Shown piece after piece: positions 1-64,000 of a stretch of 64,000 bases of DNA; within the stretch, counting starts at the first letter, position 1, and each line of letters starts with the position of its first letter. The stretch is from Okamejei kenojei (taxonomy: Eukaryota). Position numbers and translations under genes: made by a program. The notes beneath the pieces were generated by a model, which worked only from the letters and a program-made list of their open reading frames with translations, ran no database searches and was not told the origin of the DNA. Where the stretch lies: positions 23,312,001 to 23,376,000 of the forward strand of contig CM069163.1 in assembly GCA_035221665.1 (NCBI GenBank), given 5' to 3'.

Positions 1-258
1 GGGAGCAATGAGGTATTTAGAAATAAGGAACTGCAGATGCTGGTTTACAAAGAAAAACATAAAGTACTGGAGTAACTCAGCAGGTCAGGCAGCATCTCTG
101 GAGGGCATGGATAGTGATGTTTTGGGTCGGGACTCCTTTTCCGACTCCCTGCATTTGAGATATATTGGTGGAAACCAGAACACACTGTGGAAACCCAAGC
201 AGTCACAGAGAGATTATACAAACTCCACCAGCAGTCAGGATCTAACCCGGGTCTCTGG

Positions 259-800
259 ACCACACCTGGAGTATTGTGTGCAGTTTTGGTCCCCTAATTT
301 GAGGAAGGACATTCTTGCTATTGAGGGAGTGCAGCGTAGGTTTACAAGGTTAATTCCCGGGAATTATGGAGTAGCTGGGCTTGTACACTCTGGAGTTCAG
401 AAGGATGAGAGGGGATCTCATTGAAACATAGATTGTTAAGGGCTTGGACACACTAGAGGCAGGAAACATGTTCCCGATGTTGGGGGAGTCCAGAACCAGG
501 GGCCACAGTTTAAGAATAAGGAGTAAGCCATTTAGAACGGAGACGAGGAAACACTTTTTCACACAGGGAGTTGTGAGTCTGTGGAATTCGCAGCCTCAGA
601 GGGTGGTGGAGGCAGGTTCTCTGGATGCTTTCAAGAGAGAGCTAGATAAGGCTCTTAAAGATAGCGGAGTCAGGGGATATGGGGAGGCGGCAGGAACTGA
701 TTACTGATTGGGGATAATCAGCCATGATCACATTGAATAGCGGTGCTGGCTCGAAGGGCCGATTGGCCTACTCCTGCACCTATTGTCTATTGTCTGTTGT
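259..800 (+). mobile_element. CR1-clade LINE, 5'-truncated 3' fragment
   Basis: [34 protein letters not shown] and RTRGHSLRIR...FFTQGVVSLWN motifs; ends in an (attgtct)n tail. Confidence 0.92.
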
Positions 801-1690
801 GAGACAATAGACCTTGGGTTTCGGCCCGAAACGTTGCTTATTTCCTTCGCTCCATAGATGCTGCTGCACCCGCTGAGTTTCTCCAACACTTTTGTCTACC
901 TTCGATTTTCCAGCATCTGAAGTTCCTTATTAAACAATATGTTTGATTCCAGACTTGTTCCTCGTTTCAGAGGCAGTTAGGGATGAACAATGATTGCTGG
1001 CAATTCCTATGAACTCCATATCCCATGAATAAATAAATTATAAACTTGTCCATTCTTTTTACATAATTAAATACCCTGACCAGTTTGCCGAGCACAGGAC
1101 GATGGGCTGAATGGCACTCTGCTGTGCTGGAATATTCCTCGATTCATCCACTTCAGTGGGCTGTTTGATCCTTTTGTTCTTGGCCATCAATCTGGATGAG
1201 TGCTTCGTATTGCACTGACTTAACATCCTGTTTTGGTGTGTAAGCTTCCTGCCGCCTTTAATACGTTGGTTTAACTCCCTTCAAACCATTTATTAAACTT
1301 GAGGTGTGTAATAGATTTGGAATTTGCACCTGGCTTGGTTTGCAGGTAACTGAAGTTGGCTTAGTAACTGTGTGTCCAAGGCACGGGAGGGGAAAGGTGT
1401 GTGATTTGCACCATTACTCACAGATGATTAAATGGATTCACTTGTGATCGTTGGTTTCATTTGTTTCTGAGAGGCTGCAGTTATATGGAGAGACCAGACA
1501 AGCTGCGATTGTTCTCCTTGTACAGATGATTAAGGCAGATGTAACAAATGCATTTAAAGTTTTGATAAATGTAGGTAAGAAAAAAAAAATCCTACGGTAG
1601 AAAGAACCAGATTTAAAGTAATCGACATAGGAGAACTTAATTTCAGCAGGAAGGTATGATTTGGAATGCAAGGAATTCAAAGTAACTTTT

Positions 1691-1833
1691 GGGGGAGGAA
1701 GATTGCAACCTTCACATGGTCCGCCCTGTTTCGACGAATGCAATCAACCCGGTGTGCACAATCAAATAAGATCAAATAGAACAAGTTGTCCTACAACTTT
1801 AGGCTGTGCACGCCATATGCAAGAAGAAGAAGA
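1691..1833 (+). mobile_element. Short (GAA)n-tailed retroelement, copy 1
   Basis: ~140 bp, homologous to 25687-25820 and 43911-44046. Has a (gaa)4 tail and TSD aaagtaacttttg (1679-1691 / 1833-1845). Confidence 0.85.
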
Positions 1834-2319: not shown

Positions 2320-3770
2320 CGAGTTATATAACATGGAAACAGGCCCTTTGGCCCAACCTGCTTATGCCGACCAAGATGCCCCATCCACACTAGTCCCCCC
2401 TGCCTCTATTTAGCACATATGCCTTATATTCATGTACCTGTTCAAATGCCTTTAAAATGTTGTTATAGTACCTGCCTCGACTACCTCCTCTGCCAGCTTG
2501 TTCCATATACCCCACCACCCTCTATGTGAAATAGTTTCCGTCAGGTTCCTATTAACTCTTTCCCTTCACGCCATAAACCTGAGCTCTCTGGTTCATGATT
2601 CCCCTACTCTGGGTAAAAGCACTGTATAATTAACTTTTCTAAAACCTTCATAATCTTATACACCTCTGTAAGATCCTCCATTCTTTTTCTGCACTGCAAG
2701 GAATACAGTCCTAGCCTGCCCTTCCACCTCCTGTACCTCAAGTCCTGACAACATCCTCGTAAATCTTCTTTGCACTCTTTCCAGCTTAACGGCATCCTTT
2801 CTATGACCAAAACTGGACACAATATTTCCAAATGCGGCCTCACGTCTTGTACAACTTTAACATAACATTTCAACTTCTAATCTCAATTCCTTTACTGATG
2901 AAGGCCAATATACTGAAAACCATATCTACCTGTGACACCAGTTTCACCACTCCTAGATCCCTCTGCTCGACAACTCTCCCCAGAGCCCTGCCAGTAACTG
3001 CGAAGGTCCTGCTCTAGTTTTACTTCCCAAAGTGTAGCACCTCACACTTATCTGCATTAAACTCTATTAACCATTGCTCAGCCCATTTGTGCAACTGATC
3101 AAGACCCTGCTGTTATTTTTGATAATCATCGTTATCTACGATACCAAACATTTACATGTCATCTACAAACTTACTAATCATGCTTCCTCAGCCAAATCAT
3201 GATATAAATCACAAACAGCACCGATGCCCGAGGCAAACCGCTAGTCATAGGCCTCCAGAACTGAAGAAAACCTTCCACAATTAGGCTTTGCTTTCTTCCA
3301 TGAAGCCAATTCTCTATCCAGTTGGCAGGCCCTCCCTGGATCCCATGTGATCTAACCTTCCAGAGCAGCCTACCATGAGGAACCTTATCAAATACCTGTG
3401 TTCAAGAAGGAACTGCAGATGCTGGAAAATCAAAGGTAAACAAAATTGCTGGAGAAACTCAGCTGGTGCGGCAGCATCTATGGAGCAAAGGAAATAGGCA
3501 ACGTTTCGGGCTGAAATGTTGTCTATTTCCTTCGCTCCATAGATGCTGCCGCACCTGCTGAGTTTCTCCAGCAATTTTGTCTACCTTATCAAATACCTTG
3601 CAGAAGTCCATATAGACAACGTCTTTGCCCTAAGCATCCCTTTTGATTCCTACTTAAAAAAACTCAGATTCGTAAGACACAATCTCCCATGGTCAAAACC
3701 ATGCTGACTATCACTCATTAGCCCATTTATGCAAATGCATATATATCTTATCCCTTAGAATCCCCTCCAA
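2320..3770 (-). mobile_element. Older CR1-clade LINE fragment, interrupted by a Penelope-derived insert
   Basis: Degenerate VRPHLE...RLGLYSLQ...DLTEVYKIM motif (2604-2873). CR1-type 3' UTR near 2320-2560 and RT remnants up to ~3770. Confidence 0.8.
3398..3588. mobile_element. Palindromic Penelope-derived short element with 16-bp flanking duplication
   Basis: Inverted arms meet at ...gcaacgtttcgggctgaaatgttg... The sequence accttatcaaatacct is repeated at 3382-3397 and 3583-3598. Confidence 0.8.
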
Positions 3771-4829
3771 TAGTGGGTGCCTGGAACGTGCTTCCAGGGA
3801 TGATGATGGAGACTGACACGACAGGAGCATTTAAGAGGCTTTTAAATGGGCACATGGATATACAGGGATATAAATCACGTGTAGGCAGAGGAGGTTGTTT
3901 TAATTGGCATCATGATAGACACAGAAATTGTGGGCCGAAGGGCCTGCTCGTGCTTTACTGTTCTGTGTTCTTTGTACTGCAATAGATGATAACAGATTGT
4001 GGTGTCGTGGATTTTGAGGAGGTGAAATTTAGGCAAACAACAACAAAAAAAAATTGCCAAATTGAATGTCGCTGAGCTCACAAATTTCTACTGCAGTCAG
4101 ACAAAGTATTAAGAGATGGTCTGGTTGAATATTTATTAACTGACACATCAAATTTGACTTTTAATAGAAACGTAGAAAGATAGGTGCAGGAGTAGGCCAT
4201 TGATCCAGCACCGCCATTCAATATATTCAAGGCTGATCATCCAAAATCAGTACCCCTTACCTGCTTTCTCCCTATATCCCTTGATCCAGTTAGCCCTGAG
4301 AGTATATCCAACGCTCTCTTGGATACGTCATTGAATACAATACTAAACCATGAGAGGCAGGGTGAAATGCAGAATATGGAGGCAAATATCAGAAGTTATA
4401 AACAGTTGGGTACTGGCATAGATACTATGAAATGCTGCAGTTGCTTCAGCACAATGTTTATAGAATTGACAGCGTGGTCTGCATCAGTATTCTGTAGAAC
4501 TTGTGACTGTCTGCCCTTCCTATTTTACTCTCAGTGTAACTAATTACTTTCTTGCTTCTGGGTTTATCTAATTTGTGGTGTAATACATCTCTGCTGTTCA
4601 CTTGAAAACTTTTAAGTATCAAGCACTGTCTTGTCCCTCTCTGAGTAGCTTCTTCTCAGTACCTTATTAGCAATACTAGTGTTAACCTTGTATTTGTGAC
4701 TTGTAGTTTTGATATTTCTAATGTGAGAACAATATTTCTTCGTCTCCCCCTGAACCTCTTCATATTTTTAAAGACAAAAAGTAACCCCTCAGCAGTTGCT
4801 TTTTCAATGAAAGGAACCTTAACCTGCTT

Positions 4830-5062
4830 ATAGACACAAATGCTGGAGTAACTCAGCAGGCCAGGCAGCATCTCGAGAGAAAAGGAATAATTGACATTTC
4901 GGGTCAAAAACCCTTCTTCAGACTGAAGAAGACTGAGTCTGTAGAAGGGTTCGACCTGAAACGTAAACGATTCCTTTTCTTCGGGGATGCTGCCTGACTC
5001 GCTGAGTTACTCTAGCATTGTGTGTCTATCTTCGATGTGAATCAGCATCTGCAGTTCCAGCT
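4830..5062. mobile_element. Inverted pair of Penelope-derived terminal repeats (MITE-like)
   Basis: gctggagtaactcagc...cccttcttcagactga followed by its degenerate reverse complement. Confidence 0.8.
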
Positions 5063-5198
5063 TACACCCCCACTAGTTAGTTCTTTCCTGATTGATCCAT
5101 ACAGAGGAGAAAATGCAAAAATCCATTGACCAGTTTGCTGAGCACTCACATAAGTATCATTGATAATGCCACAATCTGTCCTGTGTTTTCTCCTCCAG

Positions 5199-5306: not shown

Positions 5307-6624
5307 GTGAGTGCAACTGAGGCGTTAACACTGGCCGGTGCAATAGTTCCTCAGTGAAATTGTTTGCCCCAATTAAGGATTTTATTTGTGGATTAGTCCT
5401 ATCTTTTTCCATAACTATTTTAAACCTGAAAAAAATATTGTCACTAGTCCCAAAGTGCTTCCTTACTGACATTTCAGCCACTTGCCCAGCCTCACTTCCA
5501 GAGAGGTGGACAGTTTGGAAATAAGAGCAGTTACATAAATGCAAATCTTTCCTTTTTACGGTTATTTTGTTTTTCACCTTTTCAGAAGGGAAAAGGGAAC
5601 TTTCTGCACTCTTGTAGGAAGGCTAGTTTCAAAATTGGATGGGAATGAAGAACAGATAGATTATCCAGATTCCTGAACAGAATTTTTTTTGGATGGGGGT
5701 GGGTTTCAGAGACCATTGAGTCTGTGAGCACTCTCTGTAATTTTAAATCTGCCGCTGATTTATCTCATGTTCTGCGCTTCACTTTGACTGTTTCAGTCCC
5801 CTATGACTTAAAGTTTCGGTTTTAAAAGTAAGTGGGGTGATGTGTGATGTTCCCTGGCAGTTATGGGGGTTTTGGGGGAAACTTGAGCAAACAGCTGATG
5901 TATCAAGAACCACAGATTTGAGCTTGACTCACATTGCACTCCTTGAGCAAACCAATGAAGCTGGTATTTCCCATTTCATGACGTGGCAGTTTGTCACAAA
6001 ATCTAATGGTATATTCTGATTCATAAAATATGCTCTGGAGAATATTAAGTTTAGTGCGGCCTTTTTCAAATATTTGATCACATTGGGCCTGGCACTTTTC
6101 GTTACAAACTGGAGATGCCAAAAGGCAAAATGGTGATACCTCACTGTACAAAATCTAAATCTTGGTCTCCAAATGTGTCAGACATTGAAAACGTAGAACT
6201 TAGCAGGAAAATAAATATAAATAGCAGCCGTAGATTACCAAATTAAATCACTGGTTACAGTAAAAAGAAAAAAATTGCATTTATATTGTGTCTTCACCAG
6301 CTCGGTACATCCAAAAGTGCCAATCAACGGTGTTGTGTGTTTCATAAGTTGAAACTTAAGCCAATTTGCATAACGTTGGCTCATGATGGCCAAGTCACAA
6401 AGGGTCTGGTAAAGGGTCTCGACCCGAAACATCAGCTATCCATGTTCTCCTAAGATACTGGCTGACCTGATTTACTCCAGCACTTTGTCTCCTTTGGTGT
6501 AGAAACCTGTTTGTTTTTGAAACACTAACATGGGATAATCTACTATGATGCCTTGTATTTACATACCAACTTCTAATGTTACTAAGGATTCCAAAGGAGT
6601 TCACATAAGCATTATTAAACAAAA

Positions 6625-9600: not shown

Positions 9601-11435
9601 AGATTCTGGATTGGATGCTACAGAGAATCTTCTGTACCCATCGCGTCCTGTACCTGCCTTGAGAGCATTTGAAGGGGAAGTGTAGAAGCTTCACTGTGTA
9701 TGTAATCTTGGTTCAATGGGACAGTGCAGATGGAACTTTGCACCTGGTTTGGGAGACTTCACTCTTACCATTGCATTCATAATGGGCTCAAACATCAAAT
9801 TACCATGCCAAAATATTTTTTCCCCAGTGTATTTTGCTGAACCATTCGTGTTTCTTTGGACAGCTCTGTGCTTTGAGCTCGAGGTGACATCAGTTTAAAA
9901 TACTGTTTGCTGTTAGTTGACTTTCAGCTTCTGGTACATTTCTACAGAATGTAGGCAAGGCACCAAACTACCAAGACCTCTGACTGATCCTCATCATTCC
10001 AGCCCTCTCACTGACTCCTAAACCAATTTCCCCCACATCACCAATCTCTGAAGTCTATTTGTGAAAAGATCTAAAAGTTACATTTAAAAACAAAATGCTG
10101 GAGGAACCCATTAGGCTTCTCCAGTACTTTTTTTTTTTTGCTAGAAATTCCAGCATCTGCAGTTTCTTGTGCCTCTAAAAGTTAAACTAATTTATTCACC
10201 CAATGATCACGGCAGCCGTTGGCCATTTATTTCTCAGTATGTTACAAAGTGCGGCTGGAACCGTAACTGCACTCATTTTGTCTGACTCAGAGTTCAGAGG
10301 TAAGTCTCAATAATGTCTGAACAGTCATTACCTGATCATCATTGTCAAGGACTGATTCCAGGCACCCAGACTCTTTGAATTACTAGTTATGGGGAGGACT
10401 AGATATTTAGTTTACAAATTCCTGTGCAAGAAAGGAATGCAACAGTGTGATGAAAATTCAGAGGGAAGAATGCTTGCTTTGCCAGTAATACCAGACGCCA
10501 AGATTTAATATTATTTAAAAATGTTTGGCATATTGTCCTTTAAAATATTTATTTTCCTATCATCATGGAAGACTGATCAGATCATCTATTGTTTCTGACT
10601 TCCCCAGCCAGAGAAAATAGTTCCACTGTACCTCCACCCTACACCTGAACAGCCTGAGGGACCTTCCTCCCAGATCAGAGTCCCGACCAGCCCGCTTTTG
10701 ACACTGCCTTTCATCGCTTTGCTGAACCTGTTCTCATAGTGAAAAGCTTCTCATTTAACTATACACACCTCCTCCATATCAAATGTGCAGCTTTCAGAAC
10801 CTGTACAGGTCCAAACAACACTTGTTTCTTTCTGGGTTACATTGGAACATTACATGTTGCCCTATTTGGTACACAGAATGACTTCCTATTCTCTTAAAGG
10901 TTTGATGCCCTTTCTTGTCAGTTTCATATGGTCCATCTCTGACTTTCATTTCTCGACCTCTTCATTTCCATTGCAGGGCATAGGCTAGCAACTAGTATCT
11001 AACATCAGCTCATTATACTCCACAGCTACTGTTCCTATATTGCTTCCCATTCTGCCTCCTGTTATCACCTTTCCCTTCTCGCTGTTACCTGAATTCTATG
11101 CATCTGTTCGAAAGATGCCAGTTTTCACACTGGTGCTTCAGAGATGTATTTTTTTCCCTCAGCTACACCCTTCATCTCTGCCCTTCTTGCTCCTAGATCT
11201 GTTACTTCCATTTTGCACACTTATGCCCTCACGTCCTCTTCTGTGACCCAGAACAGGGGGTTTCCCTTGTCTCTGCCTTCCACAGTTGCGCCCATATTCA
11301 ACTAATCATTCTCCAGTTTCCAACACCTTTGATACAATAACAACTTCAGACACAACTTTCCTTCCAGCAACCAGTAGGGACTGTTCAAGCTGAAGGTGAA
11401 GCAGTGATAAAAGGTCACTGACCTGAAATAATAAC

Positions 11436-11690
11436 TGAAGGTAGACAAAAATGCTGGAGAAACTCAGTGGGTGAGGCAGCATCTATGATGCGAAGGAATA
11501 GGTGACGTTTCAGGTCGAGACCCTTCTTCAGGCTGATGTGAGGGTGGGGGTGGGGGGGTGGGATGAAGAAGGGAAGAGGTGGAGACAGTGGGCTGTGGGA
11601 GAGCTGGGAAGGAGGGAGAAAGCAAGGACTACCTGAAATGAGAAGTCAATGTTCATACCGCTGGGGTATAAACTACCCAAATGAAATAAT
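11436..11690 (-). mobile_element. Penelope-like element 3' fragment (GIY-YIG tail plus terminal repeat)
   Basis: QLLFHLGSLYPSGMNIDFS motif, followed on the - strand by CTGAAGAAGGGTCTCGACCTGAAACGTC (11504-11531) and the common terminal repeat. Confidence 0.8.
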
Positions 11691-14878: not shown

Positions 14879-15637
14879 CACCTCAATCCAGTTCTGTGAT
14901 TCAATTAGATTATGGCAGATATCTTAACTCTAGCTACATGCTTTCTCTGAGTAATTTGACATCGTCACCCACCAAAAATCTATTGTGTGCAGTTTTGACA
15001 TTTTCAAGTGACCCACAGTATCAACAGCTTTTAGAAAGTCTAGCTTGGATGCCCACTGTTCAATTTGTTGATTAAACCTTAATGAATGCTACAATATTTG
15101 CTTGAACTGAATACTCCAATTAAGATGACTTTTACAATGACAATATTACAACCCAATGTGCTGCAGTAAAATTGATACTTGGCTATCCTCGCTGGCTTTA
15201 GAACAAGTTTCTAAAAATAGCATTTTACAACACTCATTAGATGAACTTGATGCAGGTGTCATTTACATGAGGTACCACTAGAGAGTGCTGGATCACAGAA
15301 TCCAACACAGATTCACCACCACAAGATTTCAAAGGATAAAGAGCATCTGTGGCGAGGGCTTTGGATTGAGACACTAAAGTGTATTGATATCGATATCTCA
15401 GTTGAGTAGCATGGTCATAGAAAAGTCCCTTAAATGCATGTCCCAACCACACATTGCAAGGAAACAGATTTGGAACCATGATCTAATCTGAACAGTGGCA
15501 AAATGAGAGTCTGAAGAAACTTCACCCATTCCTTCTCTCCAGAGATGCTGCCTGTCCCGCTGAGTTGCTCCAGCTTTTTGTGTCTATCTTTGTCAAAATT
15601 AGATGGGAGTTATCTAGAGTTCAAATCAGACATCTCT

Positions 15638-17480: not shown

Positions 17481-17721
17481 ACTCTATATCAGTATCCAGC
17501 CACTTTTACTGAAATCTGTGATAAATAAAGCAGTATTGGGTTCATTAGTGATACAGTTAGATAATCTATGGACGTTACTTTTCTGGGTTCTGTCATTTAT
17601 ACATGTGCTGGACTGCGGAATAGCAGTCAGTCATGCAGAGAAAAGACACCACAAAATATTCAACAATGTCTTGTACCTAAACTTTAAAAAGCTTTTAATT
17701 TCAAATCGAGGAACTCGGCAA

Positions 17722-17818
17722 CTCAGTCTGAAGAAGGGTTTCGGCCCGAAACGTTGCCCATTTCCTTCGCTGCATAGCTGCAGCCGCTGAGTTTCTTCAG
17801 CACTTTTGTCTACCTTTG
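17722..17818 (+). ncRNA. Penelope-derived repeat with intact minimal hammerhead ribozyme core
   Basis: CTGAAGA-A-GGGT(TTCG)GCCC-GAAAC-GTT at 17728-17755. Confidence 0.65.
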
Positions 17819-20385
17819 GCAACTCTAGGTGTACATACCCTCTCTGCACTTAATATAGCCACAACACAACAAAAACATTCTGATAAATCCCCCCATGGTA
17901 ACACTGAGTTACTGCAATGATTTTTATTATCATTCTTTAAGTTGCCCTTTCCCCTCAGTTACTATTGTTATACCATAGTCATTAAACTAACACTTACAAA
18001 TACTCTCAAGAGCACCTTGCTATACCGCACACACTACTAGTATAACCTACAATACCAATTATAATAATCTGACTTGGAAAGGTTTGGTGAACAGTCTTGC
18101 TTCAAATGTGAAGATACAAATCAAAAACACAAAAAAAAACTGCAGATGCTGGATGTTTGAAATAAAAAACAAAAACAATTTCTAACATTTTGTTTTTATT
18201 ACTCAAAACTATTTCTCCCTCTCAAAGTGAGAATCTAGCCACCTCCCCTTTTCAGTAAATAGTAAGGGATTTGATCAACATCTTGAGGATTATGACCTGA
18301 AACCTAATTGGATAATCAAATAAATAATTTGTTTAATAATTGAGTAACCCAAGGGATAGGTATTATATAATGAATGAATTTTCAAAACCTTTCCATGTGC
18401 TCAGAGCGTAATGGAATACTCCATTTACTTAGTTCAGTGTAGCTTTTATGATACTCAAAGTTTGACATAATTCAGGAGAAAGCATCAAGCACCTGATAAA
18501 TCCATTCCTTCTGCTGCTGATCATGTTGCCGTTGCCAGCAACTCTCAAACTCCATGAAAGAATAGAAAATGTACATTGATGGAACAGAACATTACCCTCA
18601 ATCTGACCGTTCTCAACATAATTATTCATGTCAGACTAGCAACCCACAAGTTCTGAAAAAGAAAATGACAGATCATTTCTAGTGGTCCCTTTTTCTGCTA
18701 CAACTAACTATGACACTGGTCAATGATGGTTGCCACATGTTGGCATCCTGTTTGATTGTGCAAGATATTTGGTGGCCGATTTGTGGTTTAGCGTGGACAG
18801 CCGGGTGATTTAATTCTCCGCAGTCAGATGAACTCTCGCTGTTATATCATCCTATCTTCATCTGTTATAAAATCGAACCCTCATTGAATGAAGGTGGAGT
18901 GAGGATTATTGTTAGTTGTTAGTTGTAATCAACTGGAGGTTACAGAAATCAAAACAGTTTCTGGAGATTTACAACCCTAGCACTTGATTCTGTCATATAT
19001 GATATATTCTTAAAATGTTCCATCACAGTCAAACCATTTAATCAATTGAGCAAACAAGTTTCATCCCATCCCCAAACTCTTCAACATCCCATCCAATCTA
19101 ATATCACCCTCCTGGAGAACATGCCATATCCTTCTATTCTCATATCTCCATCCCCATTTGAGTGGATACCTCATCTTCCCAAATGGCAGAAAAGATCCAC
19201 CAAAAGGGAGGAAGTAAGCCTTGGAAACCACAGTATAAGCTCAAGACTGTGTGGGATCAGATAACGTATCCGCAAGGATTGCCACTAAAAGTGGCGAGAT
19301 GGAAGGGACGTTTCTCTTAGAGGTCCCCAACATTAGCTCCAAAGCCCGTAACATTGATACGGATTGCCACATCATCCACCCTTCGCCATGTTGAATGCAC
19401 TTGGAAGAAACGCAAAGGGCAGCAAGAGTGGAGACGTTTAATATGATAATGAAGCTCTGATAACACCATCGCTTACTGAGACTTCCAGGACATAGCTGCC
19501 GGACAGAAGCAATATGAGGGAAAAGCCAATTTACCATCTTTCTCATTAGCCCACCAATGGAGGGTGCATCTGCCTGTGACATATTGGTGAGAATAATAAC
19601 TGCATTGACCTTGCTGAAATAATGCCCTGTCTTAACTCTGAGAAGTTCCTCCATCTTACTGTCTTGACAGAATTACTTTGATGAATGAGAGAGATTCAAG
19701 GAAGATCTAACCCTAAAACGGGGTGCTCTAACGCAAAAAGATAGACAACATTCTGGAGTAATTCAGCAGGTCAGTCAGCATCTCTGGAGAAAATGCCTTT
19801 CCTTGCTTTCGGTTCCTCCCTACTACAATCAGTCTGAAGAGTCCTGACCAGAAACATCACTCAAGATGATTCTCATTTTCTCAAGAGATGCTGCCTGACC
19901 CATTGATTTACTCTAGCATTTTGTGTCCAGCATCTACAGTTCATTTTTAACACTTATAAGGCACTGTGGACAATCAGACAGAATTGTATACCAGTATAAT
20001 CTATAACTTCATGACCCAAATGATTCCCCATTTCACCATTACTGTCAAGGCAGGCACCAAACATGGGTCATTGAGTATAAAAGATCATGTCAAGAACAGA
20101 AATAGGTATATCTAAAAATCTGAAGCAGCAACAGCAGAGAACTACATACATGTTTATCACCTGACCCTGCATAGTGTTGATGGAACAATCAATCCCACTG
20201 CCATTGATCAGGCCAACGCTATGCACTAAGCCAAATCCAGGAATGAACAGTGATCCTTAAAGAGAGAAATGGGAAAGAGAGGCTCCAACATTAATGATGA
20301 CATTATAAGAATAACATGTGATAACAATGAACTGCAGATGCTGGTTTATACCATAGAAAGACAAAATGCTGGAGTAACTCAGCAG

Positions 20386-40085: not shown

Positions 40086-40219
40086 CCACCAAACGAACAC
40101 AAAGTGTTGGAATAACTCAGCGGGTCAAGCAACATTTCTGGAGAAGATTGATAGGTGATGTTTTGGGTTAGGGCCCTTCTTCAAACTGATTGTAGGGGAG
40201 GGAACGTGAAGAAAGCTGC

Positions 40220-40320: not shown

Positions 40321-43300
40321 CTCTTTGTGTTGTTTTGTGTCAAACAGCATCTGCAGTTCTTTGTTTCCACACAGAGATATCACCAAAGGTATCTCTGCAA
40401 AATCATCCAAATACACTGGTAGAATAAGCAAACCAACATCAGTGACATTTTCAGGCCCAAAACTCAATTGGTTCCCACGAGCCACATTGTTTGCCTGATC
40501 CCGTATTTTTGAAACAGATATCCTATTCTGAACATTGGCATGGCAAGAGAATTAACTGAGTACAAATCTTACATATTAAGGATTTTTTAAAGCATCCTTG
40601 AAAAAGTGTATTATCCCCACTGACGTGGGAATCTTTAGCCCATGGCTACTTAACATAAAGAGCATTTGGAAACACATTAAGAACATAAAGACCACATGTT
40701 AAGACCTCTCAAAAAATCGGTGGAGATGGTGCAAGGAGTCCACCCATTCTCAAACTACCTGCATATTTCCTGTCACCTACTTCACCTGCAGCAGGGATTA
40801 AGGATCCCACATTGGTTAGGAACCTCAGTGTAAGGAAGTCATCCTTAATTCTGAAGGACTGCGAAGAAGAAGAATTTCTGCACTCAGTCAGTGCTATCAA
40901 CATCCTTTTGAAGCTATGCAGCCCTCTGCAAATAATAATGCAAATCTGACCCAGTTAAGAATTGCTCATGATAGGCATTCTAGTTACTACTCAGTCTGGC
41001 TGATAACAACTTAATGTGAATGAGATGCACATAATGAATGAATAATAATCAGATATATTTCCTTTTTCCCTTTTTTACTCATATATACCATCCTGTGTTC
41101 ACCTTTGACATTTACCATACCTGGCTCATAACTTGTTATTAATCTGTGTTGAACTGAAATGCAGCTCCATCAATTCGCTTGGGCTCTTTGAATGCCGCTA
41201 GTCTCTGGGCTCCCAATCTCCCGATTGTGCCGATATATCTTACTGTGCATTACATGTGCAGTGAAATTTACTCTTCTGCGGATTGTTACTTCCTCACTGT
41301 AAATCAAACATTTTTCTTCATGAATATTTCAGATTCCTGAACTTTTTGATGTTTTTTCTTCTAAAAATATTTTTATTCCCTTCACATTCTCACCTCCCCC
41401 ATCTCTAACAACAGCCACCTTTCCTTGAGCTGGTAAATTATGCTTGAGTAAGATTTCCAAGGGGCTTCTGTGACCTTTGGAGGCCTGTCCAAGTGGCCAT
41501 TTGGTATTGCAGAATCATGGAATTGTACAGCACACTAGGAGATAATATGGACCATTGTGCTTGTACTGGTTCTTTGAAGGAACTACCCAATTAATTCCAA
41601 TTCCCTCTCTCTTGCCCCGCAAATGACTCTCTGTGCATTTATCCCATTCTCATTTGAAAGATATGTTTGAATCAGCTCCTTTCAAACAATAAATCATGGA
41701 TCATGACAATTTGTTGACTGAAATTATCTTATTTTTCCCTCTGTTGTTGCAAATTATCTTAAACTATGTCATGCTCAGCCACACCATTACAAGAGGGAAC
41801 AGTATCTCAATAATTCCATCAATATTCCCTATAATTTCCAAATTTTTCTATCCAATACTATGTTGTCTGATGTCCTAATTTCACACTCTCCATAAACTTG
41901 AATGTAGCTTGAATTCTAATTTGCATCAATTCCCATTTCCACCTCACCCCTGAGTTTATTGACCTACATTGGTTGTCAATGCTTTGAGTTTAAAATTCTT
42001 ATTTTGATTTCAAATCACTCCATGTCTTTTGCCAATCACTTTCTCAGTAACTTCCTCCATCTTTTGAGATGTACATTTCTTACCTCCCACGAATGTCCTT
42101 ATTATTTCATTTGGAAGCTTTTTCTTCAACTGCCCAGGTCCTAAGCTCTATATATCCCTGCCACCTCCATCATGCTACGTGTCTTTCTACTATTCTCTCC
42201 TTTGTTAAAACCTTTAGAAACAATATCATTTTGTGGACTTGCCAGAACATGCCATTTAAAGCACAATTGTATGGCTCAATGAGTCCAACACTTGCGATAC
42301 ATATGTGAATACTTGCGATTCCCATTACCCATTTTTAGCCACATCACCATTATATCTTCATATGGTTTTCTTTCTGATATGTTTATTTTGTTTTCTTTAA
42401 ATACATCACCTTATTTACTTCAACTACCCCTTATTATTGTCACCTCCACAATTAGTAAACATTCTAGTAAAAGATTTTCTCTGACTTCCCATGAGATTTG
42501 TTAGTGACTATTTCATGTTCTATATTCATGGCCTGTAGTTCTAGTCTTGCTTATATGAAAACGTTTCTGCGTCTACCATAACCAACACTTTCATAACCTT
42601 AAAGTCTTCATCATGTCGCACTCATTCCTCAATTTCCTCAAGCCCATTCAACCTGGTTTCTATTAGCTAAACTTTTCTATTTCCATTTAATCTCTTTTCA
42701 CATTTTCTTGCATTTTTGTGTCCTTTTATAATCCAAATGACCAGAACCATTTACATGCTTAATGTGTAGTTTTACATACTTTTTCTGATCTTCAATTTTA
42801 TCCTGTATTTTATGGTATAATTAATCTGTGTGGCTAACGTTAATTATTTGCATATCTGTCTCTCCTTACCAATGTAGACACTAATTTTTCATAAGATTTC
42901 TGTAATAGTGCCAACCAAAATGCTTTATTTTTGTCTGTTGTATCTGTTCTATACAGAAGTTAAATTTGCCAATTTAACACTATTTCTGAAAGATCTTTCA
43001 TATTTTCCCTGCAATTTGTTGAAGTCCTCTGAATAAAATGCAATTCCCGACATGGTCGCTTCTTAATATTTTAATTGTACAATCTAAAGTTTTATTTTTG
43101 ATTTCCTATTTAAAATAATTTACTGTGGACCAAGATTCCCTTGTAATACCATTTCTCGCCTTTTGCCAACTGAGTAACTGCCTTTGAACTATTCTGTTGG
43201 ACAAGCATGTTTTCAGTATTATAGCCAGCTTGACGTATTTTCTAGTGATGAAATGTCCTTTTCTGTAAACTAGCATCTGTAGTTCCTTGATATGTTCTCT

Positions 43301-44046: not shown

Positions 44047-45359
44047 AAGGTATTCAGTTAGTTCAGGGAAGTGGAAAGATTTGCCACAACAGAGGGTCTA
44101 AATGTCCCACTCCTGCATCTTCTGCTGTTATGTATGTGTTGGCTGCTGCAATGTTTGGAGAACATGATAAATTAAATCAAGTTTAACTGAGCAAAGATAA
44201 ACCTAAAACTTTAACTCTGTTTAAATCCCACAGATGAGTCCTGACCAGCCGTGCATTTTCTGTTTTGACTTTAGATTCCCAGCTATTTTGATTTTCAAAG
44301 AGAAGTACATTTGACTGGTTTTGCAAGCTCATTCAATGCTAGCATTAATGAAATTTCAGCAAGGCACAACTTTTAACTAAAGCGATTTCCACTGAATGCC
44401 AGGAATGGACTAATGGGCAAATATTAGCAGGGACAGGCTGACCAGAGAGGCTAAGAACTGGTAACAACTTTCAGAATCAGGAAAGTTGTTTTTGACAAAG
44501 GGTTTTTTACCTCAAACATTGAACATGCTTTCTCTCTTATAAATGCTGAGTGGCTTCAGCATTTTCTGTATTTATTTCAGATTTATAGCTTCTGCATTAA
44601 AACAAATTAGGTTATCTTGAGATATTAAGGTCAACCGGCAACATCTTTGCTGAACATAATGAAAATTAGTTGTTGTCATACAGCATGGAAAAAGAGCCTT
44701 TGGCCCTATCCATCCATACTGACCAAGATGCCCTATTCAAGCTAGTCCCATTATCCTGTGCCTACCTCTTATCCCTCTAAACCTATCCTATCCATGTACC
44801 TGCCCAAATGTCTTTTAAATGTTGTTATTGAACCAGCCTCGATTACTTCCTCATTTCATATACCCATCACTCACTATATGAAAAAGTTGCCCCTCGAGTT
44901 CCCATTGAATGTTTCCTCTCTCATTTTAAACCTGTACTTTGTTTCAGAAGATGATCTATTGTACTCATGTATAGTGCCATTTGACTGGATAGCATGCTCT
45001 CTGTTCATGTGACAATAAGCTAACTAGCTATCTAACTAGAAGATATAGACACAAAAAGCTGGAATAACTCAGTGGGTTAGACAACATCTCTTGAGAACTA
45101 ACTAATTCTTGATTCCCCTGCCCTGGGAATATATGTGCAATATAACTGGAATGCTTTTGAATCTGAGTTGCATGGTACTCAGGAGGTACCAGTATCAGCA
45201 CTGAGTCAAGCTTTTGCACAGTTTAGTGCCAAAACTAATTATACGATGGACATTTGGGAGACCTCTGGCCCAACAACCATTCGGCATAAGTAGTTGGAGG
45301 GGTTGTGTAATGCAGTCAAATTTGGGTGTAAAACTCACAAAAGTCAGTTTGTGTGCAAG

Positions 45360-45490
45360 AAGCAACTGCAGATGCTGGTTTAATCCAAAAATAGACACAC
45401 AAAGCTGGAGTAACTCAGCAGGACAGGCAGCATCTCTGGAGAGAAGGAATGGGTGACGTTTCGGGTCGAGACCCTTCTTCAGACTGAAGA
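45360..45490 (-). ncRNA. Penelope-derived repeat with perfect minimal hammerhead core
   Basis: - strand 45482->45455 reads CTGAAGA-A-GGGTCTCGACCC-GAAAC-GTC. Confidence 0.7.
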
Positions 45491-45969
45491 GAATTATTAT
45501 GTTATCTTGAGATATTAAGGACAACCAGCAACATCCTTGGTGAACACAATGAAAATTATTTATGCGGAGTTGTTGAGATACAGCATGGAAAAAGTCCCTT
45601 TGGCCCTATCCATCCATACCGACCAAGATGCCCTATTCAAACTAGTCCCAGATTGAAGAAAGGTCTCGACCCGAAACGTCACTCATTCTTTCTAGCCAGA
45701 TGCTGCCTGCCCCGCCGAGTTACTCCAGCTTTTTGTGTCAGTTTGCGGTTGGGATACAAAGTGGTCGCCAAACATGGACTAGCTGAGGGTTTCCACCCAT
45801 ACATAGAAATTAGGTGCAGGAGTAGGCCATTCGGCCCTTCGAGCCTGCACCGCCAAGTGCAGTGAATGTGCAGTGAAATGAAAAGTGGCAATGCTGGCGG
45901 ACTTTGTGCAAAAAGCAAACAAACAAACAAACTACAAACAGAATCACATATTACTTTACATATTACGTA

Positions 45970-46400: not shown

Positions 46401-47056
46401 GTATCTGGAGATAAAAATGCCACTTTGGTGAATATTGTAACTGTGCACATTTGGGGTCTGATTTGCAGGGGGAAAAACACCTCGGCTCTGGGTGAATTAA
46501 CTTTCCCACCTCGTTTATAATTTAATAGAAAAGTAATGCCGAGCGAGGGCCAACATTTGAAAACTTCCACCTCATGAATTCAATCCTTACCTTCACTCAG
46601 AAGATTATGAGTTGGATTAATCCATTTTACATCAAATAAAATCTATAACCCCCCCCCCCCCCCCAACGGCCCATTTAGTTCATACACGTGTACATAAAAG
46701 AACGACTGGTGGAGGTCGAGCAGCGTCTGTGGAGGGAAGGATCGACGTTTCAGATTTTGTTCCTGCGTCAGGACTTTCCAAACACAGTAAAACGCTGCTC
46801 GACCCGTTGAGCTCCTCCAGCAGTCGTTTAGTCCAGATTGCTGCAGATTCATCATGTGCCTCCAGTTCACATATATTTATCCAACCGGTACTGTCACATT
46901 GATTTATTTGGTCTCACCCTATCAGAGAAACTGATTTTGTTCTATCCTTTTCTATCTGCTATTGAAAAGTAATTTGTTTCTCTTTCCCAGTTCCGACGAA
47001 GATTTCTGAAGGTGAGACATTAACTCTGTTTCTCTTTCCAAGGGTTGTGCTTGTGC

Positions 47057-55864: not shown

Positions 55865-56769
55865 ACATTGGTGGGTTTATGATTGTATGTCCACGGACAG
55901 AAAGACAACTTGCAATTATTTACCTTCTTCAACATAATAAATAAAAAGTCCCATTTTGCCTCACAGGCAAAAGGCATATCAGGACAGGTCTTTGCCTGTG
56001 TGCACCTATTACCTGCCACGCTTTGTCCTGCCTCTCTTCTCTTCCAACTTTCTCTGCCTTCCCTACTATCAGTCTAAAGAAGGATCCTGACACAGAACCT
56101 TCACCAACCCATGCTCTCTAGAGATGCTGCCTGATCACTGATTTACTTCAGCAATTTGTCTCCTTTTGTGTAAACCAGCATCTGCAGTTCCTTGTTTCTA
56201 CATTAGCTCAGGTTAATCTGGTCAAAATATAGGTCTAATGAGCACCTCATAAAGGACAATTAATATAGAGGTGGAGAGATTTAGGGAGAGAATGCCAGGA
56301 GAATAAAAGGCCGAGTCACTAACAATGAGATGAAGAAAATAGGGATGTGCAAGTAACTAGAATCAGAAGAGCACAGAGACGGAGGAAATTTACTAAATTT
56401 ATTGTATTCCTGTGTTCTCATTATTTCGCCCTGATAAGGTCACTAACATCAAACCACTTACATTCTCTTTCGAACATTAATGTATATGGTGAACAATATA
56501 CAAGGATGCAGCACCACTGGTTACAGTTTTTCAATTTGAAAAACAACTATTTTTAAGATGTGGTGGGTCTAATTTCTTGACTGTTATCCACTAGTTGCTA
56601 CTAGGCGGTTGGAGCTATTTTCTGTGGCCTTGGAAATCATATGGGAAAAAAATAGCAACATCTCCTCTTTCTAATTGCATTTCAATGAAAAATAGTATTT
56701 ATCTATAGTAAATGCCACCAATGTATGCAAACAAGTGTTAAAATAAGTACTCAGTTCAGCCCATCAAGA

Positions 56770-57200: not shown

Positions 57201-57431
57201 CATTTTCAGGATATAGGATTTGTTGGCAAGATCAACATTTATTGTTCATCCTAACTACCCTTGAGAAGATGACAATGAGCAGCCTTCTTAGACCACTTCA
57301 GTCCTTATTGGGAAAATACTCTCATGAAACTATTGGGTAGAGATTTCCTGGATGAACAATGAAGAAATTGTGATAGATTACCAAGACAGGCCAATGTGTA
57401 ACTTTAAGGGGAACTTCCAGGTGATAGTGTA

Positions 57432-58535
57432 GGAAGGAATTGCAGATGCTGGTTTAAACCAAAGATAGATGCAAAATGCTGGGGTAACAGCGGGGCAGGC
57501 AGTATCTCTGGAGAGAAAGAGTGGGTGGCAGTTACGGGTCGAGACCCTTCTTCAGACTGAAAGTCACGGCAAAGGGAAACTAGAGATATAGATGATGATG
57601 TAGAGTGATATAGAACAAATGAATGAAAGATACGCAAAACTGTAATGATAAAGGAAACAGGCCATTGTTAGCTGTTGGGTGGGTGAGAATGAGAAGCTGG
57701 TGCAACTTTGGTGGGGGAGGGATGGAGAGAGAGGGAATGCAGGGGTTACTTGTCGTTAGAGAAATTACAATTCATACCCTGAGTTGTAAACTGCCCAAGC
57801 GAAATATGAGATGCTGTACCTTCAATTTGCGTTTAGCCACACTCTGACAATGGAGGAGGCCTAGGACAGAAAGGTCAGTGTTGGAATGGGAAAGGGAATT
57901 AAAGTGTTTAGCAAGCGTGAGATCAGGTACGTCCAGGCGGACTGAGCGAAGGCGATCAACGAAACGATCGCCCAGTCTACATTTGGTCTTGCTGATGTAT
58001 AAGAGTCCACATCTTGAATAACGGAGATGTAGAAGATTCCATATCTTGAACAACGAAGATATATGAGTCCACATCTTGAACAACAGAGATTTTTATAGTT
58101 TAGTTTAGAGATACAGTGCTGAACCAGCCCCTTTGGCCCACCGACCAGCGATCCCTGCACATTAGCATAAGCCTACACACACTAGGGACAATTTACACTT
58201 ATACCAAGTATACAAACCTAATTCAATTAACCTACAAACCTGTACGTCTTTGGAGTGTGATAGGAAACCGAAGATCTCTGAGAAAACCCACGCGGGAAGA
58301 ACATACAGTATAAACTCTGTACAGACAGCACCCGTAGTCGGGATCAAACCAGGGTCTCCAGAGATGTATAAACACCTTAATTCCTCTTCACATTCCCACA
58401 TTAACCTTTCTGTCCTGGGCCTCCTCCATTGTCAGGGTGAGGCTAAACGCAAATTGGAGGAACAGCACCTCATATTTCGCTTGGGCAGCTTACAACACAG
58501 GAGTATGAAAATTGATTTCTCTAACTTCAAGTAAC
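57432..58535 (-). mobile_element. Penelope-like element 3' part (GIY-YIG endonuclease plus terminal repeat) with an inverted partial duplicate
   Basis: CGLLYISKTKCRLGDRF...AKHFN..SH...LGLLHC...RKL...HLIFRLGSLQ on - (57772-58083). The same motif recurs on + at 58370-58534, and the terminal repeat is at 57432-57560. Confidence 0.88.
58090..58365 (-). mobile_element. HE1/V-SINE-like element inside the Penelope structure
   Basis: cagacagcacccgtagtcgggatcaaaccagggtctc head (reverse), V domain and (ctaaa)n tail. Confidence 0.8.
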
Positions 58536-59385
58536 CCCAGTATTTTGTGTCTATTTCCGGGTGTTCTCTTGGGGCTGCTGTCCTTGTTCTTCCTGCTGAT
58601 TAAAATTGTGTATTTGCATTTTGCTGTTGGATTCAATGAGGCAAGTAACTGCAGTGAATTTTAAGATAGTATGCCATGGTACATCAGTGGTCGGGTGGAA
58701 TGAATGTTCCAAATAGCCCCGGAAACACCACCAAATATATGATGTGTTTCTGGTCAATGATACCTCCAGGTGCAGTGATGGTTTTACTATTGAATATCCA
58801 AGGATTGATGGTTTGTCAATGATAGTCATTACTGGTACTTATGTGGCATGAATGTTTCTTGCCATTAATTCACATATCAAACTGTTTTCAAGGTATTGCA
58901 AAAGGCAAACATGGAGTGTTTTATTTGCTTAGAAGTTGCAAATAATATTGAACATTGCACAATTATTTGCAAATATCTCCACTTCTGATCGTGCCATAAA
59001 GGTAATTAATGAAGCAGTTGAAGACAGAAGACGAGGAAAGTGCCCTGAATAAATCCTGTGAGTGAGTTCTATAAGTATATGAAGCTACTGTTTGATTAAT
59101 CTATGGGTCGATTCTCCCTCAGATCCTTCGAGCTGAAACGTCAATTTTTATTTGCTACCACATTTGCTGCCTGACCTTCTGAAAATTTCCAGCATTTTTT
59201 GTTTTTAACCTTCCAATTTAGACACTGGACCCCAGATAGTTTTGAGGAAGACCTTGCTAGAGCGACAGAGGTTGATATTAGGTCAATTATTCATTTTATT
59301 TCTTGCTGCTTTAATGGATCAAGTTAGCAATATTCTTATTGAATGGCAGGGATAGCTTTGTGTGTGTTGTCCAATCAAATCAGAT

Positions 59386-62600: not shown

Positions 62601-63403
62601 CTACGGGGCACGGTTACACCATACCACCCGCAGGCCAAAGGGCTCGTTAAATGTTTTCACCGCCACATTAAGTTGGCGTTGAAGGCTGGACTCACGGGTC
62701 CAGACTGGGTGGACCAGTTACCGTGGGTGCTCCTCAGTATTTGCACTGCCCCCAAAGAGGACTTGGCCACTTCCTCCGCCGAGCTGGTGTACGGCTCATG
62801 CCTGGGGATTTTCTCCCTGCCGTCCGCTGGCGGTTGGACTCTGCCCCGGAGTTGCTGGCAAGCCTCAGGGAGTGGGTGAGCAGGCTAGCTCCCGTTCCTA
62901 CTTCGCGACACGGTTTGCCGGTTGTGCATATGCCGTCGGTTCTGCAGTATTGTGCTTATGTTTTTATCGCAGGGACGCCCTCCGATCCCCCTTGCAGCGG
63001 GTCTAAGTTCTGGGTGCTGCGGTCCGGTGTCGCCACCTTCACCTTGGGCGTGGGTGGCCGGTAGAAGTTTGTCTCCGTTGGTCGTCTCAAGCCCGCCCAC
63101 GTCGACGTGGACAGCCCGGTGGTGGTCGTACTACTCCGACGTAGAGGTCGTCCGCCGGCCGATCCAGCCGCACCAGTTGTGCCTGTTTCCCCCGACCCGG
63201 TCGTCCCTGTTCTTTCCGCCTCATTGCAGTTTCCTGGTCCTGTTCGACCAGTCCCCCTTGCCCCCCCCCCCCTTGCGGTCTCCTGGCCCCTGTTCGGCCT
63301 GTCCCAATTGTTACGCCCGCCTCCGCTGACCATGTGTTCTGGTCATTGTGTCCGGGTCCCTGCTCGGTTCTGTACCTCGTGTTCTGTGGGGGAGGGGGGC
63401 TCC

Positions 63404-63635
63404 TGTAGCGGCACCTGCTGGTGTCTCGGGGTAGTCAGACCCTCGGATTGGCTACTCCAGTCACGCAGGCGCGGGGAGCGGTTTTCGCGTGTTTTTTGTC
63501 GAGTTCATTCATTCGAGGGCCACGCTTGTGGATGCAACATCGTTTATTTAGCTGCCTTACAGGCTTGCGTTATTCATTGTTCTACTATTCGTAATAAAGT
63601 TCATTGAATTAACTCACGTTCTCGACTCCGCTAAA
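63404..63635 (+). repeat. Gypsy 3' LTR
   Basis: Begins TGTAG right after the polypurine tract and contains AATAAA at 63593. Confidence 0.93.
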
Positions 63636-64000
63636 AGATAATACCATGCATGAATGCAATCAACTCAAACTCAAGTACAATAGTTAGATCAAAGGGGAAG
63701 ACACAGTGCAGAATATAGTTCTCAGCATTGTAGCACACCAGTTCCATTGACAAAGTCCAATGTCTGCAATGGGGTAGAGGTGCTTCAGACAGTAGCCTAG
63801 ATTATGAAGGACCCTTCAGAAGCCTGATAATAGAAGTGAAAAAAATTGTTCCTGAGACTGATGGTGCCCACTTGTGTTTTCACGTTGTCGGAATCTATTG
63901 CTGCAAGCAGGTTTATCATTCTACCCATACCTCACCGGACTTGACACCTACTCAGTGGGTCAGGCAGCATCCATGAAAAGAAAAAAGTAGTTAACATTTC

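What the first reader, a model, noticed from the sequence alone, without database searches (positions are those of the whole stretch)
26..64000. About 20 dispersed Penelope-derived repeats built around a minimal hammerhead-ribozyme core
Seen: the commonest short repeat here has copies at about 26, 812, 3400, 4830, 6410, 11440, 15505, 17722, 19735, 20330, 21930, 28715, 36030, 40095, 45360, 45652, 46990, 56070, 57432, 59130 and 63950. It carries CTGAnGA-A-[hairpin]-GAAAC-GTH, best preserved at 17728-17755 (+), 45455-45482 (-) and 11504-11531 (-). Stem II varies while keeping its pairing (GGGTC/GACCC vs GGGT-TTCG-GCCC). A degenerate older copy keeps a stem I of AGTT/AACT (46990-47025). Established: Penelope-like elements carry minimal type I hammerheads with a palindromic AC-GT stem III that cleave mainly as dimers. 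Two copies here are physically attached to GIY-YIG coding remnants. Inference: a very abundant non-autonomous ribozyme-bearing family at about one copy per 3 kb, including copies inside the PTPA pre-mRNA. Stem I is only 2-3 bp in the young copies, so activity is uncertain.
Basis: partly seen in the sequence, partly recalled or inferred. Interest (0 to 1): 0.7.

Follow-up and report, generated by a model that had tools for sequence, protein, structure and literature searches.

The report
Penelope leader stubs with passenger hammerhead
These repeats are short copies of the front end of a known kind of jumping gene (a Penelope-like retrotransposon) in what is likely a skate or ray genome; they carry its known miniature hammerhead motif, mostly broken and likely inactive, and their shared start point likely marks where the element's RNA begins.

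Summary
The repeat is real: 35 segments plus older copies in the window, roughly 1.25 million genome-wide. It is the ~135-nt 5' leader of an autonomous Neptune-type Penelope-like element; an intact copy (pLTR, leader, 1185-aa RT/GIY-YIG ORF, pLTR, leader) lies elsewhere in this genome and shares the young stubs' sequence. So these are short insertions of an autonomous element, not a separate non-autonomous ribozyme family. Only 4 window copies keep a complete minimal hammerhead; stem I is 2 bp or less in 51 of 57 sampled; copies sit head-to-head, not in tandem; none starts preferentially at the cut site; sense-strand copies in PTPA introns are broken. The kind is published (Cervera and De la Pena 2014). 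The useful residue: about 40% of young copies begin within 5 nt before the core, peaking at an initiator-like A, with an excess of extra G before it, and end at two fixed sites. This fits reverse transcription primed inside the leader and running off a capped RNA end (inferred; no RNA data). The scan reported this family and its fixed start before, on other DNA of this and other genomes.

The parts
21..148 (-). leader stub starting 3 nt before the core; core broken (8 of 11)
816..936 (+). leader stub lacking CUGANGA; PTPA sense strand
3382..3598 (.). head-to-head pair 3399-3516 (-, long arm) and 3499-3591 (+, short arm), neither with CUGANGA, flanked by a 16-nt duplication starting at 3382 and 3583
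4824..4927 (-). short arm of a head-to-head pair; complete minimal hammerhead 4893-4921, stem I 1 bp; antisense to PTPA
4933..5067 (+). long arm of the same pair; core A6 changed; PTPA sense
6403..6501 (+). stub, core broken (9 of 11); PTPA sense
10085..10171 (.). small coreless head-to-head pair (10085-10115 -, 10095-10171 +)
10745..11365 (+). decayed RT/thumb remnant of a related Penelope-like ORF (tblastn E 2e-10, 33%)
11432..11538 (-). stub with complete core 11504-11531 but no stem I; antisense to PTPA
15508..15594 (+). stub with stem II deleted
17721..17821 (+). stub with complete minimal hammerhead 17728-17755, stem II 4 bp, stem I 2 bp
18138..18157 (-). tail fragment
19731..19949 (.). 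head-to-head pair 19731-19795 (-, coreless) and 19827-19949 (+, core letters present, stem II collapsed)
20322..20385 (-). coreless 3' part of the leader
20804..20851 (+). coreless fragment
21926..22052 (-). stub, core broken (9 of 11)
28715..28849 (+). stub, core broken by a deletion
36030..36199 (.). older-type head-to-head pair (36030-36102 -, 36103-36199 +)
40086..40192 (-). stub, core broken (9 of 11)
40223..40366 (+). RT remnant 40223-40315 followed by a tail fragment 40318-40366
43258..43291 (+). tail fragment
44196..44277 (+). older-type fragment seen only by the older-type model
44493..44596 (+). old degenerate stub
45043..45097 (-). coreless fragment
45352..45488 (-). best copy: whole leader with tail; complete minimal hammerhead 45455-45482, stem I 2 bp; initiator-like A at 45485
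45648..45749 (+). stub, C3 changed
46713..46830 (.). diverged head-to-head pair (46713-46771 -, 46791-46830 +)
46986..47043 (+). older-type copy; 4-bp stem I arms kept, both core halves mutated
56066..56197 (+). stub with pyrimidine-rich upstream sequence; core broken (9 of 11)
57427..58038 (-). 5'-truncated element: GIY-YIG remnant 57787-58038 (66% to the intact protein), 3' UTR/pLTR, leader with tail 57427-57563; core broken
58370..58561 (+). second GIY-YIG remnant 58370-58528 (66%) joined after an internal deletion to a coreless 32-nt leader piece; likely the inverted partner of the previous part
   Evidence: pairing inferred
59128..59204 (+). old stub lacking CUGANGA
63950..64000 (-). older-type stub cut by the window end

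Best explanation
The repeats are copies of the ~135-nt 5' leader of an autonomous Neptune-type Penelope-like retrotransposon, likely made when the element's own RT/GIY-YIG protein primes inside the leader and runs off the likely capped 5' end of its RNA, so that the minimal hammerhead they carry is likely a passenger. Shown: the leader sits directly before the ORF and again after the 3' UTR in an intact copy; stubs end at about +94 or +128 (C of CUGA = +1) and about 40% of young ones start at -1 to -5; they carry 10-17-nt target duplications; head-to-head pairs mostly join one long and one short arm. Inferred: staggered nicks on both strands; priming at two leader sites (as shown in vitro for the anole element PAc); an RNA start at the initiator-like A at -3; one priming event gives a solo stub, two on opposite strands give a fold-back pair; copies that run further upstream were templated by the downstream pLTR-plus-leader and truncated at random. 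A start at -3 would leave only 3 nt for the 5' arm of stem I, which would explain the 2-bp stem; any cleavage would need the protein or a second copy and is selected in master elements, not in the stubs.
For: Intact element in L206 (G000:C6:42872001-42882000, minus strand): upstream pLTR, leader 6751-6882, ORF 3160-6714 (1185 aa; RVT_1 E 4.5e-6, GIY-YIG E 0.004, both under Pfam's cut-offs; C-x4-C-x2-C linker), second leader 2832-2928. Exact genome-wide counts of the young leader extended leftwards: from +16 26,420; +1 18,901; -3 13,924; -4 12,238; -6 10,400; -16 9,066; loss per base 0.022, 0.102, 0.129, 0.081, 0.014. Base before the A at -3 when not the templated C: G 746, A 602, T 338 (by subtraction) of 1,686; G is 44% against 28% expected. 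A single untemplated base at the junction in 5 of 20 resolved G loci and 0 of 20 resolved A loci (30 each examined, 10 each unresolved; Fisher p=0.047); untemplated G is the accepted sign of a copied cap in L1 and SVA (PMC4859970, passages). YCAKTY at that A in 39 of 59 copies with upstream homology, next-best offset 10 of 59 (consensus TCAKTY from PMC4581360 Table 1, relaxed by me). 3' ends: 225 short, 202 long, 75 other of 502. 56 of 67 classifiable head-to-head pairs are long+short, p=9e-9 (89 pairs in all). No start peak at the cut site. PAc: cuts both strands, primes at two internal sites matching the tail, needs no ribozyme cleavage for insertion, cleaves only with protein (PMC11167929, parts 1-2 of 4).
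Against: No RNA 5' ends: the 24 listed runs are all contigs, and laying 4 of them showed nothing on starts. Starts are spread from -5 to +3, with a second cluster at +3 (6 of 65), not one base. Microhomology between target and element, and the CAG-T-CTG near-palindrome in fold-backs, lengthen apparent starts and inflate A and C counts. Many junctions hold longer filler, so the G excess may be general RT tailing; I did not count G excess at other start positions as a control. The human initiator BBCABW fits fully in only 14 of 59, the MTE at 9+ of 12 in 16 of 59, these copies are not independent, and the 59 include some wrongly classed. In D. virilis Penelope the start site lies 46 nt before a 75-nt intron that ends at stem I, i.e. 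about 120 nt upstream of the ribozyme (PMC2377424 discussion; PMC4209133 part 2). About half of the young copies run further upstream and need a different template.
Confidence: 0.6

Rival explanations
1. Same identity, but the shared start is a truncation hotspot: RT copies the downstream pLTR-plus-leader of a longer RNA and tends to stall or switch template at the 5' edge of the folded or protein-bound leader, helped by the CAG-T-CTG near-palindrome.
For: Starts are smeared over about 8 nt; the predicted fold pairs the leader's first bases with its tail end; the near-palindrome centres many fold-backs; published reading of such junction palindromes as self-priming (PMC3846280, passages).
Against: Solo stubs with a target duplication abutting the start also begin there (8 of 20 resolved A loci); the steepest loss is exactly -3 to -4 and the loss falls 9-fold beyond -6; G excess and single extra G. 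The leader of copy 45352 folds no better than shuffles (z -0.32).
Confidence: 0.3
2. A self-propagating non-autonomous family (SINE- or retrozyme-like): stubs are transcribed, cleaved by the hammerhead as dimers, possibly circularised, and reinserted by the Penelope protein.
For: Very high copy number with target duplications; stubs keep the downstream promoter-like positions; retrozymes derive from pLTRs and tandem ones were counted in one chondrichthyan genome (bioRxiv 10.64898/2026.07.22.740005, parts 1-2 of 5).
Against: Copies begin 30 nt upstream of the cut site and end 65-100 nt after it, not cut-to-cut; 7 of 420 starts near the cut; only 16 same-strand neighbours among 543 hits; stem I <=2 bp in 51 of 57; young stubs match the autonomous leader letter for letter; all 8 clusters include copies with upstream sequence.
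Confidence: 0.06
3. The start marks a 3' splice site (polypyrimidine tract, CAG, then stem I, as in D. virilis Penelope) and stubs come from spliced RNA.
For: Pyrimidine-rich sequence ending in CAG precedes the core in every subfamily; the D. virilis intron ends at stem I (PMC4209133 part 2).
Against: Target duplications abut the start with no exon between; no shared upstream exon among 113 solo copies; no such joint among the 15 listed (157 not shown).
Confidence: 0.04

Closest known systems
Minimal type I hammerheads in pLTRs of metazoan Penelope-like elements (Cervera and De la Pena 2014, PMC4209133; parts 1-2 of 4 read)
   Same: CUGANGA, one extra base before stem II, G10.1-C11.1, palindromic AC-GU in place of stem III, location in the terminal repeat, mass of solo and opposite-strand copies from truncated elements.
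   Different: Stem II 4 bp and stem I 2 bp here (7-8 and 4-5 bp in Schistosoma; 2-bp stem I also in D. virilis). Abundance far higher: 57 descriptor hits per 1.2 Mb (over 100,000 genome-wide by extrapolation) against about 4,000-9,000 in coelacanth and Xenopus with their descriptor. No cartilaginous fish in the parts read; supplements not seen.
Neptune/Nematis-type EN+ Penelope-like elements (Craig et al. 2021, PMC8557442; Arkhipova et al. 2013, PMC3846280; passages read)
   Same: Single ORF RT then GIY-YIG, Zn-finger-like linker, partial tandem forming the pLTR, inverted 5'-truncated partner, 30-40-nt tail on one end only, target duplications.
   Different: Most copies here consist of the leader alone; the fixed start before the ribozyme is not described in the passages read. 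Neptune rather than Nematis rests on recalled host range, not on a tree.
PAc, Poseidon element of the green anole (Frangieh et al. 2024, PMC11167929; parts 1-2 of 4 read)
   Same: Two internal priming sites downstream of the hammerhead that define the tail; both strands cut; ribozyme cleavage not needed for insertion; no RNA ends at the cut site.
   Different: In PAc the ORF starts inside the hammerhead; here the ATG is at +163, so the whole repeat is 5' UTR. Different clade.
Non-LTR retrozymes (bioRxiv 10.64898/2026.07.22.740005, parts 1-2 of 5 read; PMC7229834 search listing only)
   Same: pLTR-derived, type I hammerhead, dispersed monomers.
   Different: Retrozymes are head-to-tail tandem units with a ribozyme in each; here neighbours are head-to-head and the ends do not match the cut site.
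L1 twin priming and cap-derived 5' G (PMC4859970, passages)
   Same: Inverted arms within one target duplication; extra G at a full-length 5' end.
   Different: Priming is internal in the 5' leader, not on a poly(A) tail, and both arms copy the same short region.

Membership tests
EN+ Penelope-like element (Neptune/Nematis type) | Single ORF with RT followed by GIY-YIG endonuclease | tested here: met
   1185-aa ORF in L206; RVT_1 E 4.5e-6, GIY-YIG E 0.004, under gathering cut-offs; GIY-YIG passes the cut-off in L121
EN+ Penelope-like element (Neptune/Nematis type) | CX2-5CxxC linker between RT and EN | tested here: met
   C-x4-C-x2-C before the GIY-YIG domain; criterion from PMC8557442 passages
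EN+ Penelope-like element (Neptune/Nematis type) | Partial tandem giving a pLTR; tail; inverted partner; target duplication | tested here: met
EN+ Penelope-like element (Neptune/Nematis type) | Placement in the Neptune clade by RT phylogeny | not tested
   no reference sequences fetched, no tree built
Minimal type I hammerhead of PLEs | Core CUGANGA, GAAA, NUH with palindromic 15.2/16.2 | tested here: met
   all 8 cluster consensuses; 4 of 35 window segments and 57 hits in 1.2 Mb against 1 in the reversed control
Minimal type I hammerhead of PLEs | Stem II with G10.1-C11.1 and covariation | tested here: inconclusive
   pairing kept; only a one-sided U-A to U-G change among young clusters, one cluster has a C opposite A; older copies too few and decayed
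Minimal type I hammerhead of PLEs | Stem I of 4-5 bp | tested here: not met
   <=2 bp in 51 of 57, also in the intact young element; 4-bp arms only in older copies
Minimal type I hammerhead of PLEs | Self-cleavage as dimer or with protein | not testable with these tools
   needs bench assay; cofolding did not give the dimer form
Rfam hammerhead families | Match to a curated covariance model | tested here: not met
   12 matches at E<=10, none a hammerhead
Non-LTR retrozyme | Head-to-tail tandem units each with a hammerhead | tested here: not met
   16 same-strand neighbours, 97 head-to-head, 16 tail-to-tail within 60 nt among 543 hits
Non-LTR retrozyme | Unit ends set by cleavage; circular RNA | tested here: not met
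   no start peak at the cut site; circles themselves not testable
Non-autonomous (SINE-like) family | Own master lineage distinct from the autonomous element | tested here: inconclusive
   none seen: young stubs identical to the autonomous leader, all 8 clusters have longer copies; no tree of copies built

The most novel reading that the evidence does not exclude
The million stubs are strong-stop-like products of a Penelope-like element: its RNA starts, capped, at an initiator A three bases before the hammerhead core, the hammerhead region doubling as downstream core promoter; the protein dimer primes at two sites in the 5' leader on opposite target strands and runs off the cap. The genome would then hold a base-precise record of the unknown middle of the PLE cycle, and the pLTR tandem and inverted ends would follow from success or failure of a template jump, as in retroviral strong-stop transfer.
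Probability: 0.45. Interest if true: 0.6.

Novelty: new member of a known kind. Interest (0 to 1): 0.3.

Why it matters
As a ribozyme finding it is ordinary: the association is published and these copies are mostly dead. It matters modestly in two ways. About 4% of this vertebrate genome is one 135-nt PLE leader. And how PLEs form their tandem and inverted ends is an open question; a young subfamily with over 26,000 identical 50-mers, an intact ORF and sharply defined ends makes the start-site/run-off/twin-priming model directly testable by 5' mapping and by in vitro reconstitution.

Tried and rejected
Rfam scan: no hammerhead; the MIR8670/MIR1507 hits at 3437-3583 are under their gathering scores and reflect the fold-back. 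Cleavage-made 5' ends: rejected. Tandem dimers: rejected. Per-copy selection on the core: non-CpG core columns 0.91 against 0.82 for all flank columns, but the 34 well-kept flank columns reach 0.89, and the CpG core base G12 is only 0.67, so stubs look neutrally decaying; the core advantage reflects master lineages (the tables had a column offset and were redone). Fold stability of the leader: not above shuffles. RNA evidence: only assembled contigs, RNA status guessed; summed depth follows copy number (leader about 1000-fold over the ORF start), so nothing on starts or expression. BLAST-type search with a 71-nt leader piece returned nothing because common words are skipped. Target duplications in window copies: clear only at 3382/3583 among 16 units tried. 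Literature: 'Penelope + hammerhead ribozyme + shark' gave 1 irrelevant paper; 'Penelope + Neptune + skate + transposable elements + genome' gave 0; among 14 papers listed for 'Penelope-like / strong-stop / pLTR' only a fungal Copia paper holds both of the first two terms. Lunse et al. 2016 on dimer cleavage is not held; I saw it only as cited in PMC6765202. Repbase/Dfam were not searchable, so the family may well be catalogued. No protein database search or tree was run.
Full report
Observation. A profile HMM built from window copies and refined on genomic ones finds 35 segments in the window at E<=0.01; the seed model found none in the reversed window. The others lack the core or carry substitutions in it. 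Rfam gives no hammerhead. The host gene is PTPA on + (exons 5196-5303 and 12091-12162); all 5 sense-strand segments in its introns are coreless or broken and the 2 intact ones are antisense.

Genome context. The window lies in a 2.76-Gb genome, elasmobranch by inference from size and repeats; not identified further. In 120 stretches of 10 kb taken at round positions on contigs C1-C38 (my choice, not length-weighted; 1,198,000 bases) there are 543 hits, 0 in the reversed control, about 1.25 million genome-wide (bootstrap 1.09-1.40 million) and 4.3% of bases.

What the repeat is. Walking upstream from longer copies reaches a 3' UTR, a GIY-YIG domain, a C-x4-C-x2-C linker and an RT. A protein search showed a young subfamily with long open frames; of 20 such regions fetched, L206 holds an intact element: upstream pLTR, the repeat, a 1185-aa ORF whose ATG is at +163 counting the C of CUGA as +1, a 3' UTR and the repeat again. 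L214, L218 and L223 have the same 5' layout with interrupted frames. The repeat is therefore the 5' leader of an autonomous Neptune-type Penelope-like element, which in published terms is the end of the pLTR plus tail (PMC8557442, PMC3846280, passages). In the window, 57427-58038 (-) and 58370-58561 (+) are truncated copies reaching the GIY-YIG domain, 66% identical to the intact protein.

The hammerhead. But well-kept flank blocks match the core per copy (0.89 against 0.91), stem II shows only a one-sided change, and stem I is 2 bp or less in 51 of 57 complete motifs, including the intact young element. Published minimal PLE hammerheads do not cleave as monomers and cleave weakly as dimers (PMC4209133, part 2); the anole one cleaves only with its protein and is not needed for insertion (PMC11167929, part 2). 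Here only 16 neighbouring pairs are same-strand, 97 are head-to-head and 16 tail-to-tail. Starts near the cut site are not enriched: 7 of 420 well-aligned copies at +27..+31, 9 and 12 in adjacent bins (123 weak or edge hits dropped). The stubs are not made by cleavage and are very probably inactive.

Fixed ends. 3' ends are bimodal, 225 near +94 and 202 near +128 of 502, matching the two internal priming sites and the tail described for PAc. In head-to-head pairs, 56 of 67 classifiable (89 in all) join one long and one short arm (p=9e-9), and 24 of 65 rows of young copies, pairs counted twice, show a 10-17-nt duplication (long copies could not be tested). For 5' ends, exact genome-wide counts of the young leader fall from 26,420 (from +16) to 18,901 (+1), 13,924 (-3), 12,238 (-4), 10,400 (-6) and 9,066 (-16), a loss per base of 0.022, 0.102, 0.129, 0.081 and 0.014. 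About 40% of copies that include +1 thus begin at -1 to -5. Among 113 solo copies of all ages the templated base is seen at 0.77, 0.65, 0.60, 0.42 for -1 to -4, then at background.

Why there. The A at -3 sits in an initiator-like context (YCAKTY in 39 of 59 copies with upstream homology; TCAKTY 27; human BBCABW only 14), and with it as +1 a CGANC falls at +18..+22 in 29 of 59 and a DPE-like 5 of 6 at +28..+33 in 43 of 59 (consensuses from PMC4581360 Table 1 and the PMC5287114 listing; post hoc, copies not independent). When the base before that A is not the templated C it is G in 746 of 1,686 cases (44% against 28%), A in 602, T in 338 by subtraction. A single untemplated base stands at the junction in 5 of 20 resolved G loci and 0 of 20 resolved A loci (p=0.047; 10 of 30 unresolved in each set). 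Untemplated 5' G is read as a copied cap in L1 and SVA (PMC4859970, passages). D. virilis Penelope has an Inr/DPE-type internal promoter in its pLTR, but its start is about 120 nt upstream of the ribozyme (PMC2377424, passages and discussion). No RNA ends could be seen: all 24 runs offered are contigs.

Mechanism. Shown: identity, ends, duplications, arm pairing. Inferred: the element's protein nicks both strands, primes at either of two leader sites and, on an RNA starting at -3, runs off after about 97 or 131 bases; one event gives a solo stub, two give a fold-back; longer copies come from the downstream pLTR-plus-leader and truncate at random. A start at -3 would also cap stem I's 5' arm at 3 nt. 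The chief rival is a stall or template-switch hotspot at the leader's edge (0.3); smeared starts, microhomology and filler at junctions keep it open. A self-propagating retrozyme-like family is unlikely (0.06): young stubs equal the autonomous leader and all 8 clusters include longer copies, though no tree was built.

Novelty. PLE minimal hammerheads and their dispersed truncated copies are published; this is a new member, unusual in number. I found no paper on this family or on a run-off origin of solo leaders, but repeat libraries and supplements were not searchable. The scan's earlier notes report the same family and fixed start on other DNA of this and other genomes; they are leads, not support. 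Interest 0.3; 0.6 if the capped run-off model is confirmed.

Noticed in passing
window 31877-32749 (-): Single-exon IER-family ORF (PF05760, E 7e-91) downstream of PTPA; likely IER5L by recalled synteny.
   Followed up: no
window 5196-5305 (+): The penultimate PTPA coding exon appears to end on a GT donor after a codon for D where E is usual (recalled); not checked against relatives.
   Followed up: no
window 16481-17044 (-): LINE-type RT remnant (RVT_1 E 4e-28) whose 3' parts recur at about 430-800, 15650-16190, 20430-20800 and 48260-48600.
   Followed up: no
window 51188-52233 (+): Broken tyrosine-recombinase ORF pieces (phage integrase families, E 1e-4 to 9e-4, under cut-offs), with an 85-nt inverted repeat at 52439-52747; likely a DIRS-type element.
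   Followed up: no
window 59876-63607 (+): Fragmented ORFs with RT-RNase H domains; likely a gypsy-type LTR retroelement; described only.
   Followed up: no
window 47040-47516: 16-nt tandem array with higher-order 82/131-nt periodicity directly after the old-type copy at 46986.
   Followed up: no
window 3437-3583: The fold-back pair scores 84 bits against Rfam MIR8670 (gathering 150) purely as a long hairpin; such pairs, about 1 per 12 kb in the sample, are a large potential source of intronic double-stranded RNA.
   Followed up: partly
L222 5493-5704: A fold-back pair of the young subfamily flanked by an unusually long direct repeat of about 39 nt; L258 has 25 nt.
   Followed up: no
L206 3160-6714 (-): The intact ORF has a ~250-aa proline/serine-rich segment between an N-terminal helical region and the RT, recalling the low-complexity inserts described in rotifer Penelope ORFs.
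   Followed up: no
L224 2928-7441: Two 5'-truncated young copies of about 2.4 kb each joined head-to-head inside the ORF, one ending at the short site and one in the tail: the same long/short pairing at kilobase scale.
   Followed up: partly
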